Assembly: GCA_951406725.2 (NCBI GenBank)
Contig: OX597827.1
Coordinates: 29,512,001-29,576,000, forward strand
From: Octopus vulgaris
Taxonomy: Eukaryota
Length of the DNA: 64,000 nt
Reading direction: 5' to 3'
Shown here: positions 13,811-43,849 of the stretch, one piece after another
Position numbering within the stretch: the first letter of the stretch is position 1
Layout of the letters: every line of letters starts with the position of its first letter
Made by a program: the position numbers and the translations under genes
The notes under the pieces: generated by a model
Told to the model about the DNA's origin: nothing
The model's input: only the letters and a program-made list of their open reading frames with translations
The model's database searches: none

Positions 13811-13883
13811 AGTGCAGCTGATGAAGACTAATCAAATCTACGTTGTCAAACGTATTTGAAGAGTCTGAAACCGGTTCTGCATT
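13811..13883 (+). ncRNA. Type I hammerhead ribozyme motif (PLE-type)
   Basis: Stem I AGTGCAG/CTGCATT, core CTGATGA (13818-13824), stem II AGACT/AGTCT with an extended hairpin, GAAA (13867-13870), palindromic CCGG stem III, GUU cleavage triplet (cut after 13876). Confidence 0.8.
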
Positions 13884-14121
13884 ATCCGATTCTAGGTTTT
13901 CCATTTATCAGATGTTCTTCCTAGAGGTAAGACAAATTTTTTTCATGTTTGTTGCACACACGCGTCTTTGCTAGTATATACGCAGTGAAGCTATACAATA
14001 GCGTCGTATTTATTACGATTGCTATTTTCCAGTAAATATCGGTGCCTCGTTGTACCATTTATTTACTTATATATATATATATATATATATATATATATAT
14101 ATATATATATATATATATATA

Positions 14122-14390
14122 TTGGGGACGCATGGCCTGGTGTTTAGGGTGTTTCACTCACGATCGCGTGATCTTGGTTTCAGTTCCTACACCTGGTGGT
14201 GCTTCGTGTTCTTGAGTAAAACACTTCATCTCACGTTACTCGGTGATCACTTCGACACCTGACACGTGGAACACCATGCACCTGTTCAGGTAAACGTCGA
14301 TTTGATGGAGTTAATGTACAGCATATAAACAATAAACAAATCATTTGTGCAGGCAAAAGTTGAACGCACAAGCGCCGTCTTCGACAGGAG
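14122..14390 (+). mobile_element. tRNA-derived SINE (third family)
   Basis: A-box-like TGGCCTGGTGTT, B-box-like GGTTTCAGTTCC, core GTGTTCTTGAGTAAAACACTT. A related core lies on the minus strand at 18810-18845. Confidence 0.55.
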
Positions 14391-16929
14391 AGTATATATA
14401 TATATATATGTGTGTGTGTGTGTGTGTGTGTGTGTGTGTGTGTGTGTGTGTGTGTGTGTGTTTGTATGTGTATGTATGTATATATATATGTATGTGTGAG
14501 TGCATGTATGCATATACATATATTCCTAAATATATATATATATATATATGTGTGTGTGTGTGTGTGTGTGTGTGTGTGTGCATATGTGTAAATAGAGTGT
14601 GTATGTTTACATACGTATGTGTGTGCGTGAAAGAGAGAGAGAGAGAGAGAGAGAGAGAGAGACCGTCAATTTTCATGGCTTAAGGTCCAGACAGTTGTGT
14701 CAAGTTGATGAATATCCTTCTGAAGAAATTGTGCCGAAGCCTATCATATGGCTTTACAGTCCAAGAGTACATAATTCTCATTCTCCACCACCACCGCCCC
14801 ATTTTTTCTCTTTTCTTTTCAGGAATTTTCAAACTTCCACCTTTAACCTTCCACTTTCTTCTCGTCTATCCTCGTAATTTCTGTTATTTTATCGTCCTGT
14901 TTTAGGTTTTATATGTCATGTGGGCAAACTCTGAGGATTGCCGAAGGCACCAGACGTGTTATAAAATGCCGAGTCGTTATCATCGCGTGAAACTATTGGT
15001 TGTTCATAAAAATATATATGGTGTTTATTAAGCAATTATACACGTGCGCGCTCACAGACACACACACCTGGGATATCTTTAATTGTCGGTCAGCAGAATC
15101 AAAGATAGCCTAGGGTTAAACAACAACAGCAGCAACAACGGCAGCGGAAACTACACACCTGCCTATTGTATCTTCTGCAGAAATGGCACCTGATCTTATG
15201 CAGTAACACAGATGTTTTGTTGTTCGATTACTCTTATTGTACTCTTGTTATTTGCATTTTCTTTTCATTTAGTTTACGCATTTAGTATGACAAGAATGGA
15301 ACAGCGTTGGACTGAGATAAGTTCCAACGTTTTTCTATGTCTTTCTATGCTCCCTTTCCATGTTCTATCGAAATTTAGGTTGGCATTCTGTATCATAGAG
15401 ACGTTCAGATAAATACCCGTGTATGGAGGATTAATTCATAGACACAGACACACACATATATACATATATGTGTGTGTATACATATTTATATATGAATGAA
15501 TATAGAGAGAGAGGAGAGAGAGAGAGAGGAAGGATGGAGGGAGAGATAGAGAGAGTGATACATATACAAGCACAAACATATATAAATATACACAAATTTA
15601 TATATGTATATATACATGTGTGTATCTGTGCATGCATGTATGGTCATTTCTCTCTCTCCCCCTCTCTCTCTCTCTCTCGCTCTTTCTCTCTCTCTCGCTC
15701 TTTCTCTCTCTCTCTCTCTCTCTCTCTCTCTCTCTCTTTTTATACACACACACACATATACATGTATATACACATATATATAACTCTCCATCTGTTTGTT
15801 GATCTACTTAGCTAGCTATATGGCTATTTATTCATTTTTTCATTCATTTATTTACTTATACCTACGTTACTTCTACATCTATCTATCTATCTATCTATAT
15901 ATATATATATATATATATATCTATCTATCTATCTATCTATCTATCTATCTATCTATCTATCTATCTATCTATCTATCTATCTATCTATCTGTCTGTCTGT
16001 CTGTTTGTCTCTCTATTTAACTATCTATCTATCTATCTATCTATCTACCTGTCTCTCTACCTGTCTATCTATCTATCTCTTTCTCTCTGTCTGTCCATCT
16101 TTATATCTATGTGTCCATCAATTAACTTCCCATATAGCTATTCCCTTATTTATTTACCAGTGTCTATACTTCGCTTTCCCTCCCTCTATTTCTCTCTGCC
16201 TTTCTCTCAATCTTTTTACCTATCTCTCCATCAGCTTAGCTCTCTTTCTCTACCAATATATTAAGTTATCTATTTTCCCTCTCTGATCTTCTTTCTTTCT
16301 CTCTCTCTCTCTCTGTCTCTCTCTCTCCCCATATATATATATATATATATTAATCTATCTACCTATCTATTAATCTCTCTATATATATGCATATATATAT
16401 ATGTGTGTGTGTGTGTGTGTGTGTGTGTGCATTTATACATATGTGTGTGTGTGTATAAATGTATATATATATATCTTTTTCTTTCTCTCTTTGTCTGTCA
16501 TCCCCTTTCTCTCTCTGTCTTTTTCTTCATATACGTACATATAAATACATACATACATCCTCACACATGTGTACACACATACACACATACACACACACAC
16601 ACACGCACGCACGCACGCACACAGACACACACACACGCACGCACACACACACACACACACACACACACACACACGTATTTATTTACTCTCACTTATTCAC
16701 CAAATTGACATTAAATTAAGGAGGTTTGTTGATAGGTTCATCACCGTTGACATTTACCGTATGGATGTGGCAGCAGCAAAACTAATTCTTTCATTCTTCT
16801 TCGTTTTCTTCACTTCTTTTTGTTTTTAAATTTTCTTCTCTTTCTTTTTTCTTTTTATTTTTTTCTGCGCAACCATCACTTTTATCAGCATCAACACCGC
16901 AACCACTAGAAGCATAACCACAATATTGT

Positions 16930-18200
16930 CATCATACCACCTCCACCACTACAACAACAACAACATTAACTGCTACTACTACTACTACTACTACTACTAC
17001 TACTACTACTACTACTACTACTACTACTGTTGCAGAAACACCATGAACTACGTCAATCGATACTTGCACAACCGCAACCACCACTTAATGTCACAACCAA
17101 CAGCAGCGGCACCATCAAGGCCTAGACTAGCAGCTAACAAGAGTGGAAACCGCTACCATTAACAATACACCCCACCCCAGCCCCACCATGATCTGTTAGC
17201 CAACATAAGCTCCAAGATCGCACAACCAACAATACCACCGTCACCACCACCAACATCACCACTACTACCACTACCACCGCCTCTATTCCCATTACCATCA
17301 CCGCCATCACCACCGCCACCACCGCCACCACCGCCACCACCGCCACCGCCGCCACCACCACTACCACTACCGCCATTTCCACTACCACCGCCATCACCAC
17401 CACCGCCATCACCACTACTACCACCATCACCACCACTGCCATCACCACCACCGCCATCACCACCACCACAACCACCACCTCCATCACTACTACTACCACC
17501 ACAACCACCACCGCCATCACCACTACCACCAGCATCACCACCACCAACACAACCACTATCAACACTGTCATTATAACCACCACCACCGTCACCACTGTCA
17601 CCACCACCACTGCCGCCACACCAAAACCACCACCACAACCATCACTACCGTCACCCTCGACAGAGAAGCCGACATTAATAGCACCAACAACCATTTCGAA
17701 TGCAACCATTATCAGAAATACTAACACTCCAGCATCATCATCCTCACCAAATGCCACCACCATCATCATCATCGCCAATGCCACCGCCATGATCAACTAC
17801 GCTACTGTCATCCCCACAATTACCACCCGTGCCAACGCTATCACCACCACCATCAGCAAACGCTACTAACCTCCTCCACCATCATCGCCATCACCAACGC
17901 TACTACCACCACCACCGTCACCTACACTCTCGACCGCCAACAGTACTAACGCCACCGCCACCGTCCATCCATCATCACCGAAACACGGCCATTTTTAACA
18001 CCATCGCCATCACCAATACCACCACCACTACCACCACCACCACCATTTTCACCATCCATCCACTGAAACGCTATCATTTATTCTACCAATTCCATTGCAA
18101 TACCATCAACAAAAGCCCCGACACCATTGCCAACAACATCAACGAAAACATCGACAATGCAAACATCACCACCACCACACGAACCACCACCACCATCTGT
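16930..18200. repeat. (CCA)n/(CTA)n/(CAT)n degenerate trinucleotide low-complexity region
   Basis: Seen directly. Poly-T/P/H/V/G translations in all frames, with no domain. Confidence 0.85.
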
Positions 18201-42920: not shown

Positions 42921-43111
42921 TCATATATATATATTTCCATGCTACAACATCCTTGGCTTTATGCGATTAGAGGTTGTGTTAACCCCATGAAGGATGGTTT
43001 CATCGAATGAAATACTATTTCAATACCTAGTATTTTGGGGAATTAATATTCTTAAAATAATTGGTATTTATATAAAAACCTATAGTTTATAATCGTATAA
43101 AAGAATAAAAA

Positions 43112-43486
43112 GAAAATGGAGATTGGGAAGTTAATAATTGTTTATTATTAACAACAAATTAATCATCAACCCCTACAGCTGTTTCAATTAATACTCAGTA
43201 AATATTAAATTTATATGACCTGAGCATAATATCGTCAGAGGGAAAAAATATACCCTTGGATGTTTTATATGTGTTTATAGATCCATTAAAGCAAACTGAA
43301 TGAATCCATTATGCTATAATGAATCCTTAAACACAAATAAAACATCCAAGGGTATCTCTTTTTCCCTCTGAAGATATTATGCTCAGCTCATTTAAATTTA
43401 ATATTTACTGAGCATTAATTGAAACAGATGATGATTAATTTGCTGTTAATAATGAACAATTATTCACTTCCCAATCTCCATTTTCA
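43112..43486. mobile_element. Foldback PLE-type cassette with ~150-bp inverted arms
   Basis: 43112-43266 is the reverse complement of 43338-43486. Each arm carries a hammerhead core. Confidence 0.75.
43170..43242 (-). ncRNA. Type I hammerhead motif
   Basis: Minus: CCCT-CTGACGA-tATTATGCTCAG...CTGAGTATTAATt-GAAA-CAGCTG-TA^GGGG. Confidence 0.7.
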
Positions 43487-43813
43487 TTTTCTTCTTACAC
43501 ACACACATACACACATACATACACGCTCGTAAAAGCTCTCTTTGTCCACCTTTACTGAGTGTCAAGCTAATACCTCCTATATGTACGTCTTTTTTGTTAT
43601 TTTGAATGTCCAAGTTGACTATATATATACATACCTATGAGGGATTCTCCCGTCGTGGACAATAAATCTGGGATCAGCAGAAGAAAGTGGTAATTATGTT
43701 CTATTGACACGTGACTCTTGAGGCCTGTTGGTGCTTTGCAAACCATTTGGCAAATGGAACAAGTTGAGGACTCAGTTTCTTTCTTTTTATTCTCTGTTTA
43801 TTTCCTCGTGTTC

Positions 43814-43849
43814 CTTTCTATCGAAGAGCGTAGGCTCGAAACGTAAAAG
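43814..43849 (+). ncRNA. Minimal hammerhead-like motif, degenerate core
   Basis: CTTT-CTATCGA-A-GAGC-GTAG-GCTC-GAAA-CG-TA-AAAG. Confidence 0.45.

What the first reader, a model, noticed from the sequence alone, without database searches (positions are those of the whole stretch)
13811..43849. Repertoire of hammerhead ribozymes in ORF-less foldback cassettes at (TA)n/(CATA)n microsatellites
Seen: about a dozen type I hammerhead motifs in 30 kb. The best are at 13811+, 23388-, 29058-, 29778+, 38655+, 40174+ and 43170-. Degenerate ones are at 30247-, 31241+, 33416+, 34166- and 43814+. Their stems differ completely in sequence, yet they share CUGANGA...GAAA, a tiny mostly palindromic stem III (CCGG, CGGCCG, CAGCTG, CGATCG, CG) and an NUH triplet. 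Known: short hammerheads with palindromic stem III occur in Penelope-like pLTRs and are thought to cleave as dimers. Inference: this is a diverse set of non-autonomous, ribozyme-processed retroelement (retrozyme-like) families with a preference for dinucleotide microsatellites. Standard repeat annotation would probably miss or mask them.
Basis: partly seen in the sequence, partly recalled or inferred. Interest (0 to 1): 0.85.

Follow-up and report, generated by a model that had tools for sequence, protein, structure and literature searches.

The report
Penelope retroelement stumps carrying hammerhead ribozymes
The small self-cleaving RNA motifs are real, but they are the ordinary end pieces of truncated Penelope-like jumping genes that landed in TA repeats, a known pattern; only one short, protein-free family looks worth a closer look.

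Summary
The hammerheads are real: 6 high-scoring motifs against 0 in 60 shuffles. Of the 12 named sites, 7 have an intact core, 2 have one core mismatch, 2 are relics and 1 (31241) is unconfirmed. They form about eight families, not twelve, and only 5 of 12 lie in foldbacks. They are 3' ends (pLTRs) of 5'-truncated Penelope-like elements (PLEs). The same inverted layout flanks a decayed PLE RT/GIY-YIG ORF at 41864-42757, whose end carries a decayed hammerhead. Of 30 related PLE loci, 12 carry this ribozyme design just after the ORF. The (TA)n bias is confirmed (9 of 13 units; SINE controls 0 of 16 and 0 of 8). All of this is published for PLEs. No locus has two complete ribozymes in tandem, so these are not retrozymes as defined. 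One family (28996-30127) looks like an ORF-less tandem unit of about 570 nt, found in many copies: a candidate non-autonomous PLE. Cleavage was not testable. The scan noted similar PLE stumps in other genomes.

The parts
11667..11754 (+). Degenerate minimal type I hammerhead (core 11673, 6-nt palindromic stem III, decayed stem II); unit ends at (TA)n at 12036.
13771..14067 (+). Single 297-bp PLE 3'-end copy between two (TA)n runs; hammerhead 13811-13883, core 13818, predicted cut after 13876
   Evidence: best hit of a model trained only on outside PLE ribozymes, E 2.6e-5
22972..23632 (-). Cassette between (TA)n runs: main copy 23536-23133 with hammerhead 23386-23442 (core 23435), inverted 97-bp arm 23536-23632 (+), and a 50-bp direct repeat 497 bp apart (22990-23039 = 23487-23536)
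28996..29228 (-). Copy A of the 29 kb family; intact-core hammerhead (core 29113, cut after 29062); 3' part missing
29229..29329 (-). Spacer X (about 100 bp) between copies B and A; present in many contigs of other runs and joined to the sequence upstream of the ribozyme
   Evidence: tables 3, 5, 8
29330..29670 (-). Copy B: 5'-truncated inside stem II, no CUGANGA core; upstream of A in partial tandem (unit about 568 nt)
29669..30127 (+). Copy C: inverted, head to head with B; hammerhead core 29782, cut after 29833; ends at (CA)(TA)n
30150..30342 (-). Short copy of an abundant family with a CG stem III; core 30277, one mismatch in GAAA that most other copies lack; ends at (TA)n
33340..33558 (+). 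Second copy of that family; core 33420 with one mismatch; ends at (TA)n
33634..33882 (.). Foldback between (TA)n runs; both arms begin at the 5' edge of a one-mismatch hammerhead (core 33723 on +, predicted cut after 33773).
33927..35302 (-). AT-rich non-coding body between (TA)n runs, with a hammerhead 3' half only (GAAA at 34180)
38455..38826 (.). Foldback; + arm has an exact core (38659, cut after 38726) with imperfect stem III; the inverted arm starts at the end of the core
38920..40453 (+). AT-rich non-coding body between microsatellites, ending in a hammerhead with a long stem II (core 40177, cut after 40281) 172 nt before (TA)n
41313..41449 (-). 3' end of the ORF-bearing PLE, with a decayed hammerhead at 41348-41394
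   Evidence: model hit E 0.049
41864..42757 (-). Broken, 5'-truncated PLE ORF: RT C-terminal part, Cys-x4-Cys-x2-Cys linker and GIY-YIG endonuclease
   Evidence: tblastn E to 6e-42
42769..42895 (+). Inverted copy of that PLE's 3' end at its 5' junction (87% identical)
43095..43495 (.). Foldback with about 180-bp arms; - arm has an intact hammerhead (core 43238, cut after 43174); + arm (core 43368) has lost stem III and the cut triplet
43770..43915 (+). Third, most decayed copy of the 30.2/33.4 kb family (GAAA at 43838); ends near (CATA)n

Best explanation
These are the ribozyme-bearing 3' ends (pseudo-LTRs) of eight or more families of endonuclease-positive Penelope-like retroelements, probably of the Neptune/Nematis type. 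Mechanism (established for PLEs, inferred for these copies): the RT-GIY-YIG protein of an intact element elsewhere nicks AT-rich or (TA)n DNA. It starts reverse transcription inside the RNA, tens to a few hundred nt downstream of the hammerhead, and usually stops early, leaving a stump of 0.2-0.5 kb. A second truncated copy is often laid head to head with the first, which gives the foldback. The ribozyme is a minimal type I hammerhead whose stem III is a palindrome, so it needs two copies (tandem master elements) and perhaps the element's protein to cut. The genomic stumps here are passengers that probably cannot cut. Some families, best shown for 28996-30127, have lost the ORF and are moved in trans. 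Shown here: motifs, anatomy, (TA)n adjacency, the PLE ORF with the same anatomy, the same design in relatives. Inferred: TPRT steps, dimer cleavage, mobilisation in trans.
For: (1) The window holds a decayed PLE ORF (RT C-terminus, Cys linker, GIY-YIG). Its long homologues carry RVT_1 plus C-terminal GIY-YIG (6 of 8 scanned have both, 2 GIY-YIG only). It is bounded by the same head-to-head inverted 3' end as the ORF-less cassettes. (2) A model trained on 15 outside PLE-locus ribozymes ranks 13811-13883 first (E 2.6e-5) and the 3' end of this ORF element second (E 0.049, rough). (3) Of 30 metagenome PLE loci that reach the endonuclease end with 150 nt or more beyond it, 12 (10 distinct motifs) carry a perfect-core hammerhead on the sense strand 69-445 nt after the ORF. 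Their stems are unrelated and their stems III are 4-6-nt palindromes. No hit at that score lay on the antisense strand of any of the 67 loci, and 4 of the 12 have (TA)n 48-121 nt after the cut. (4) Cut-to-end distances in the window are about 40-295 nt (13 units, ends by eye). In the one PLE studied in vitro, RT starts about 85-90 nt after the cut (PMC11167929). (5) Literature: thousands of variable single minimal HHRs per genome, and pairs 100-700 bp apart on opposite strands (PMC4209133); inverted 5'-truncated copies and microsatellite bias in Neptune, Naiad and Hydra (PMC8557442; PMC3846280). (6) In other runs the 3' 250 nt of the 29 kb family is far more deeply covered than its ribozyme part, as 5' truncation predicts (depth is no copy number).
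Against: No named cassette is joined to its own ORF. tblastn with 44 long PLE proteins found strong hits only at 41.8-42.8 kb, so the link for each family rests on design and anatomy. The hammerhead at the end of the ORF element is decayed and weakly scored. The model scored most long-stem-II motifs poorly (E 0.18-4.9) and missed 29782, 30277, 33420 and 38659 at E 10. 18 of the 30 relatives gave no perfect-core hit at the score used. The bodies at 33927-35302 and 38920-40453 put more than 1 kb of non-coding DNA upstream of the ribozyme, while the ORF ends 69-445 nt upstream in relatives; simple truncation does not explain them well. Two units (38.6 kb and the ORF element) do not abut a microsatellite within 15 bp. 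No whole genome was available.
Confidence: 0.8

Rival explanations
1. Most families are independent non-autonomous units (retrozyme-like): short ORF-less RNAs cut out by tandem hammerheads, circularised and reverse-transcribed in trans by PLE proteins.
For: 29 kb family: B-X-A partial tandem with a unit of about 568 nt and no ORF. X is read in several diverged contigs of two organisms (9 and 10 contigs differ at 29259; 8 and 9 at 29279). Two contigs bridge X to the sequence upstream of the ribozyme (records 18 and 25). One contig, 10% diverged, runs through all of X into both neighbours (record 26). 23 kb unit: a 50-bp direct repeat 497 bp apart. Two long non-coding bodies.
Against: No locus has two consecutive complete ribozymes. 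Record 26 overlaps its neighbours by only 21 and 16 letters, under the tool's 31-letter rule. Coverage does not step at the cut site, and much sequence upstream of the cut is copied. The 23 kb direct repeat is 100% identical while its inverted arm is 93% identical, so it may be a later duplication. In the tested PLE, ribozyme mutants did not affect insertion and no RNA-seq reads ended at the cut (PMC11167929).
Confidence: 0.15
2. The foldbacks are MITEs or foldback DNA transposons with TA targets, and the ribozyme motifs are incidental.
For: Inverted arms and TA flanks.
Against: The arms are unequal and break at different points, single-arm copies exist, coverage falls off to the 5' side, the same layout flanks a retroelement ORF, and motif enrichment is far above chance.
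Confidence: 0.03
3. Chance matches in hairpin-rich, AT-rich repeat DNA.
For: One-mismatch hits are at chance level (3 against 2.08). 31241 and 34166 lack a core. Rfam lists no hammerhead family among the 150 rows shown of 287 or the 23.
Against: 6 against 0 in 60 shuffles; own-arm pairing best of 120 permutations; other copies of the 30.2 kb family read the canonical letters.
Confidence: 0.02

Closest known systems
Minimal type I hammerheads of metazoan Penelope-like elements (Cervera and De la Pena 2014, PMC4209133)
   Same: Conserved core, short stem I, long variable stem II, palindromic stem III region, many unrelated families per genome, mostly single copies from truncated PLEs, pairs 100-700 bp apart on opposite strands.
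   Different: Several motifs here have 6-nt palindromes (predicted dimer duplex -12 to -16 kcal/mol against -3.5 for CG) and stem II arms of 40-90 nt. I did not see the paper's supplementary alignments, which may hold such variants.
EN+ PLE insertions of the Neptune/Nematis type: pLTR, inverted 5'-truncated copy, optional tail, microsatellite bias (PMC8557442, PMC3846280; Arkhipova 2006 as cited there)
   Same: Head-to-head inverted copy, partial tandem, (TA)n ends, CX2-5CxxC linker before GIY-YIG in the window's ORF remnant.
   Different: Most units here retain no ORF; clade was not fixed by a tree; target-site duplications were not discernible.
Non-LTR retrozymes of animals (PMC7229834; bioRxiv 10.64898/2026.07.22.740005)
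   Same: ORF-less units with a type I hammerhead, low GC, derived from PLE pLTRs.
   Different: Retrozymes are tandem arrays of 150-450 bp units with a complete, usually canonical ribozyme in consecutive units, and give circular RNA. Here there are at most 1.1-1.2 units of about 500-570 nt, minimal ribozymes, and an inverted arm.
Non-autonomous PLEs such as MRC1 of Chlamydomonas (PMC8557442)
   Same: ORF-less elements that form pLTRs and head-to-tail insertions; the closest analogue of the 29 kb family.
   Different: Chlamys mostly lack hammerheads and prefer (CA)n or (C)n.

Membership tests
Minimal type I PLE hammerhead | Core CUGANGA ... GAAA ... UH in type I order | tested here: met
   Exact in 7 of 12 named sites; one mismatch in 2; not met in 3
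Minimal type I PLE hammerhead | Stems I and II form, with unrelated sequence between families | tested here: met
   Own arms best of 120 permutations for both stems, 5 families
Minimal type I PLE hammerhead | Palindromic 15.2-16.2/loop 3 allowing a dimer | tested here: met
   10 motifs with a 4-6-nt palindrome against 1.34 expected; imperfect at 23388 and 38655
Minimal type I PLE hammerhead | Self-cleavage as dimer or with protein | not testable with these tools
   Needs in vitro transcription; only contigs, no raw reads, were available
EN+ Penelope-like element (Neptune/Nematis type) | ORF with PLE RT and C-terminal GIY-YIG | tested here: inconclusive
   Met for the remnant at 41864-42757; no ORF joined to any of the 12 named motifs, as expected of truncated or non-autonomous copies
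EN+ Penelope-like element (Neptune/Nematis type) | CX2-5CxxC linker before the endonuclease | tested here: met
   Cys-x4-Cys-x2-Cys in the 41911-42324 frame, conserved in homologues
EN+ Penelope-like element (Neptune/Nematis type) | Hammerhead in the pLTR downstream of the ORF, same strand | tested here: inconclusive
   Decayed hit at 41348-41394, E 0.049; clear in 12 of 30 relatives
EN+ Penelope-like element (Neptune/Nematis type) | Inverted 5'-truncated copy head to head with the main copy | tested here: met
   6 of 13 units: 23, 29, 33.7, 38.6, 41-42 and 43.2 kb
EN+ Penelope-like element (Neptune/Nematis type) | Microsatellite/(TA)n insertion bias | tested here: met
EN+ Penelope-like element (Neptune/Nematis type) | Optional 30-40 bp tail on one arm | tested here: inconclusive
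   One arm runs past the other at 23, 29 and 33.7 kb, by about 100 bp or more
EN+ Penelope-like element (Neptune/Nematis type) | Clade placement by RT phylogeny | not tested
   Only a C-terminal RT fragment survives; no named reference set was at hand
Non-LTR retrozyme | At least two consecutive tandem units, each with a complete hammerhead | tested here: not met
   Copy B lacks the core; all other pairs are on opposite strands
Non-LTR retrozyme | No protein-coding capacity | tested here: met
   No PLE similarity; longest stop-free frames 37-97 aa in 6 bodies
Non-LTR retrozyme | Monomer of 150-450 bp | tested here: not met
   Inferred units are 497 and about 568 nt
Non-LTR retrozyme | Unit-length linear and circular RNA | not testable with these tools
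   No run on record as RNA held the stretch; contigs cannot show RNA ends
LTR retrozyme (plants) | Type III hammerhead in direct LTRs | tested here: not met
   Motifs are type I and the repeats are inverted or partial

The most novel reading that the evidence does not exclude
The 28996-30127 family, and perhaps the 23 kb unit and the two long AT-rich bodies, are ORF-less PLE derivatives caught between pLTR stump and retrozyme. A unit of about 570 nt would be cut from tandem masters by a dimeric hammerhead, copied rolling-circle fashion by a PLE protein in trans, and still integrated with the PLE inverted arm. In addition, unrelated families share the same stem III palindrome (40177 with 43238; 29782 with 11673; 13818 with 41364), so ribozymes of different families might pair and cut each other, with the palindrome acting as a compatibility code.
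Probability: 0.15. Interest if true: 0.55.

Novelty: new member of a known kind. Interest (0 to 1): 0.22.

Why it matters
As it stands it adds new families to a known class and shows how dense PLE ribozyme relics can be: about 13 units in 33 kb. Rfam lists none in the rows shown, and palindromic stumps are easily mislabelled as MITEs or SINEs. What PLE hammerheads do is still open, since ribozyme mutants did not affect insertion in vitro (PMC11167929). A small, multi-copy ORF-less unit with a strong 6-bp palindromic stem III would be a handy substrate to test dimer cleavage, circle formation and the proposed PLE-to-retrozyme route. Otherwise it is ordinary transposon debris.

Tried and rejected
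No whole genome is held, so no genome-wide search or family clustering was possible. Rfam showed no hammerhead among the rows listed; the table was swamped by microsatellite miRNA models and 137 rows were not shown. The word-index protein search with the GIY-YIG frame found nothing; the full HMMER scan did. Pfam alone gave only a sub-threshold GIY-YIG hit on the window frame (E 0.021). No RNA holder was listed. I laid 4 of the 24 listed runs, on 28990-30340 only. The two guessed-RNA runs hold diverged copies, some inside longer contigs; they say nothing about transcription or cleavage, and the molecule-end table was empty because all runs are contigs. Covariation within a family could not be measured: 114 variant rows were hidden and no copies could be extracted. 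Pair counts on the relatives' ribozymes are circular, as the descriptor demanded pairing, so I do not use them as evidence. Rejected as hammerheads: 31241 (no core), 6434+ (chance-level score), 26717+ (inside a SINE), 19817- and 23807- (no adequate stems), 22723+ (no stem II). The idea that the 43.2 kb foldback is the pLTR of the neighbouring ORF was dropped: it shares no sequence with that element's 3' end. The two long AT-rich bodies are not related to each other (score 100 against 78-91 shuffled), nor 11.7 kb to 29 kb. In some searches the 33.7 kb cut position was entered 3-10 nt off; this does not change the counts. MFE folds of single motifs mostly pair the core CUG with the palindrome instead of forming the hammerhead; not pursued.

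
Full report
VERDICT. The hammerhead motifs are real and their link with (TA)n is real. They are best read as the 3' ends of truncated Penelope-like retroelements (PLEs), a pattern already in print. One family may be a true non-autonomous unit. Novelty: new member of a known kind. 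Interest 0.22.

SETTING. The window is 36% GC and full of microsatellites, with SINE-like repeats and LINE fragments. It is an animal genome. I recall its SINEs as octopus-type; that label comes from no call. No whole genome is held.

1. THE OBSERVATION. A minimal type I descriptor gave 10 hits. Six scored 12 or more (cores 13818+, 23435-, 29113-, 29782+, 40177+, 43238-), against none in 60 local dinucleotide shuffles. Perfect-core hits were 7 against a mean of 0.15. One-mismatch hits were at chance level, 3 against 2.08. To avoid circularity I chose sites by conserved letters and palindrome alone. This gave 6 sites in 5 families, and each 5' arm paired best with its own 3' arm: 1 of 120 permutations reached the observed total, for stem I and for stem II.

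Site by site, 7 of the 12 named motifs have exact CUGANGA and GAAA. 38655 is one of them but has an imperfect palindrome and escaped the descriptor. 30247 and 33416 have one core mismatch, and 43814 has two. These three are one family, 82-88% identical. In three of the four runs laid, about 85% of the depth at 30258 reads the letter that gives an intact GAAA (57% in the fourth), and 72-100% at 30248 reads the letter that gives a Watson-Crick stem I, so the family motif is canonical. 34166 keeps only the 3' half. 31241 is not confirmed. 29058 and 29778 are 97% identical parts of one insertion. So twelve motifs are about eight families, and only five lie in foldbacks.

Microsatellites: 9 of 12 cut sites have (TA)n within 300 nt downstream (3.45 expected, P=0.0012), against 5 of 12 upstream. 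9 of 13 units end within 15 bp of pure (TA)n, against 0 of 16 and 0 of 8 copies of two SINE-like families and 3% of random positions. Ends were partly read by eye, so the first test is the less circular one.

2. WHAT IT IS. Each ribozyme points towards a nearby end, about 40-295 nt after the cut, that usually abuts a microsatellite. In 6 of 13 units a second, differently truncated copy lies head to head with the first. 41864-42757 (-) is a broken PLE ORF: RT C-terminus, Cys-x4-Cys-x2-Cys linker and GIY-YIG. HMMER found 1060 relatives at E 0.001 or better. Six of 8 longer ones scanned carry RVT_1 plus a C-terminal GIY-YIG, and tblastn reaches E 6e-42. It is bounded by the same inverted 3' end (41313-41449 against 42769-42895).

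As a positive control I fetched 67 metagenome loci of this PLE group. Of the 30 that reach the endonuclease end with at least 150 nt beyond it, 12 (10 distinct) have a perfect-core hammerhead 69-445 nt after the ORF on the sense strand. Their stems are unrelated, their stems III are palindromes of 4-6 nt, and several have a mismatch at the base of stem II as in the window. Four have (TA)n 48-121 nt later. The other 18 gave no hit at that score. A covariance model built from 15 ribozymes of these loci only ranks 13811-13883 first (E 2.6e-5) and the 3' end of the window's ORF element second (E 0.049, rough calibration). It scores the long-stem-II motifs weakly and misses four. The 'repertoire' is thus the normal design of this PLE group.

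The 29 kb insertion has three copies, 96-97% alike: C (29669-30127, +), B (29670-29330, -, truncated inside stem II) and A (29228-28996, -), with about 100 bp (X) between B and A. This is inverted pLTR, pLTR, body, pLTR, with a body of only 100 bp and a repeat unit of about 568 nt. In public contigs X is covered by several diverged contigs in two organisms. It is bridged to the ribozyme-upstream sequence by records 18 and 25, and it holds inversion joints of other loci (29286 and 29308). One contig, 10% diverged, runs through all of X into both neighbours, but by only 21 and 16 letters, under the tool's 31-letter rule. I take it to be another locus because copies at this locus differ by only 3-4% (inference). 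This supports, moderately, an amplified ORF-less family. The 3' 250 nt is much more deeply covered than the ribozyme, and there is no step at the cut site (depth is not copy number). The 23 kb cassette has a similar 497-bp repeat, but its 50-bp direct repeat is 100% identical while the inverted arm is 93%, which I cannot explain. Two AT-rich bodies of 1.4-1.5 kb (28% and 20% GC; longest stop-free frames 97 and 91 aa) end in a hammerhead or half of one with no PLE coding similarity. In relatives L001 and L021 more than 1 kb separates the 5' ribozyme from the matched ORF, so such bodies could be ORF-deleted derivatives (inference).

3. MECHANISM. Established for PLEs: the RT-endonuclease nicks AT-rich DNA and starts reverse transcription inside the RNA, 111-118 nt into the ORF, with the ribozyme cut at +26. 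The ribozyme needed the protein to cut, its mutants did not affect insertion, and no RNA-seq reads ended at the cut (PMC11167929). Minimal PLE hammerheads did not cut as monomers and cut weakly as dimers (PMC4209133). Inferred here: the stumps are early-terminated products of that reaction, with a second inverted product; the linker-bearing endonuclease gives the (TA)n bias (hypothesis of Arkhipova 2006, as cited in PMC8557442). The palindromes would form dimer duplexes of -10 to -16 kcal/mol for the 4-6-nt ones and -3 to -4.5 for CG and the imperfect ones. No locus offers two complete same-strand ribozymes, and foldback transcripts fold with 63-91% of bases paired, so these copies are probably inert. 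Confidence 0.8; retrozyme-like families as the main reading 0.15; MITE 0.03; chance 0.02.

4. COMPARISON. PMC4209133 describes thousands of variable minimal hammerheads per metazoan genome, mostly single and 'probably related to truncated PLEs', and pairs 100-700 bp apart on opposite strands. PMC8557442 and PMC3846280 describe partial tandems, the inverted 5'-truncated copy, the tail, microsatellite bias and non-autonomous PLEs. Non-LTR retrozymes are tandem arrays of 150-450 bp units (PMC7229834), counted as active only with two consecutive complete ribozymes and proposed to derive from pLTRs (bioRxiv 10.64898/2026.07.22.740005). That test fails here. The 29 kb family may work like a retrozyme precursor but is not a member.

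What I saw of each paper: PMC4209133 and PMC11167929, parts 1-2 of 4; the bioRxiv preprint, part 1 of 5 plus passages; PMC8557442, PMC3846280, PMC7229834, PMC13282606 and PMC6431247, passages only; Arkhipova 2006, nothing directly. I opened no supplements; the alignments of PMC4209133 and the tables of the preprint may already list such variants or this taxon.

5. NOVELTY. I found no description of these families in the library searched: 'octopus' with 'hammerhead ribozyme' gave 5 papers, 4 listed, none on this by title or abstract; a 2026 octopus repeat annotation lists recently active Penelope families and never uses the word ribozyme; searches added nothing closer. The library lacks most subscription papers and Repbase. 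Every component is known, so these are new members. Earlier scan notes from other genomes reached a similar reading; they are not independent evidence, and none covers this sequence or genome.

6. SCORES. Interest 0.22. Most novel reading not excluded: an ORF-less 570-nt unit in transit from PLE end to retrozyme, with shared palindromes allowing cross-family ribozyme dimers; probability 0.15, interest if true 0.55.

Noticed in passing
window 31232-31571: A 330-bp hairpin-rich element between microsatellites with a 13-bp direct repeat at both ends (31232-31244 and 31559-31571). It follows what I recall as a Helitron-type 3' end at about 31190-31214. It holds the unconfirmed 31241 motif, whose core might be the U3-A8 variant of PMC4209133.
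   Followed up: partly
window 23673-24228: Another tail-out foldback between (TA)n runs (arms 88% identical). The - arm has CUGAUGA at 23807, preceded by a possible stem I hairpin and GAAA, which could be a type II-ordered or broken hammerhead.
   Followed up: partly
window 13810, 23385, 29839, 13925: Splice-donor-like GTAA(G/T) motifs lie right before or after several hammerheads; Penelope pLTRs are known to hold an intron next to the ribozyme.
   Followed up: no
window 33420 and 33723/33712: Two unrelated families show the same U4-to-C change in the core, and both arms at 33.7 kb share it, so it was probably in the template; it may be a tolerated variant.
   Followed up: no
window 13818, 23435, 29782, 43238: In monomer MFE folds the core CUG pairs with the stem III palindrome, giving an inactive rod; it could be an auto-inhibited state opened by dimerisation, or chance.
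   Followed up: partly
window 40624-41250 (-): Broken C-terminal part of what I recall as a CR1/L2-type LINE, next to the PLE remnant.
   Followed up: no
window 47200-49666, 53805-55730, 58171-59552, 61800-63999: Several copies of a LINE with RT (RVT_1 E 1.9e-30), ending in or interrupted by (AAT)n and (GAA)n runs; two copies are 97% identical.
   Followed up: no
window 36295-36685: Four tandem copies of a 96-bp unit, with a further copy at 49874-49970.
   Followed up: no
L001 58-82 and 3757-3781; L021 14-39: Related PLEs with more than 1 kb between the 5' hammerhead and the matched ORF.
   Followed up: partly
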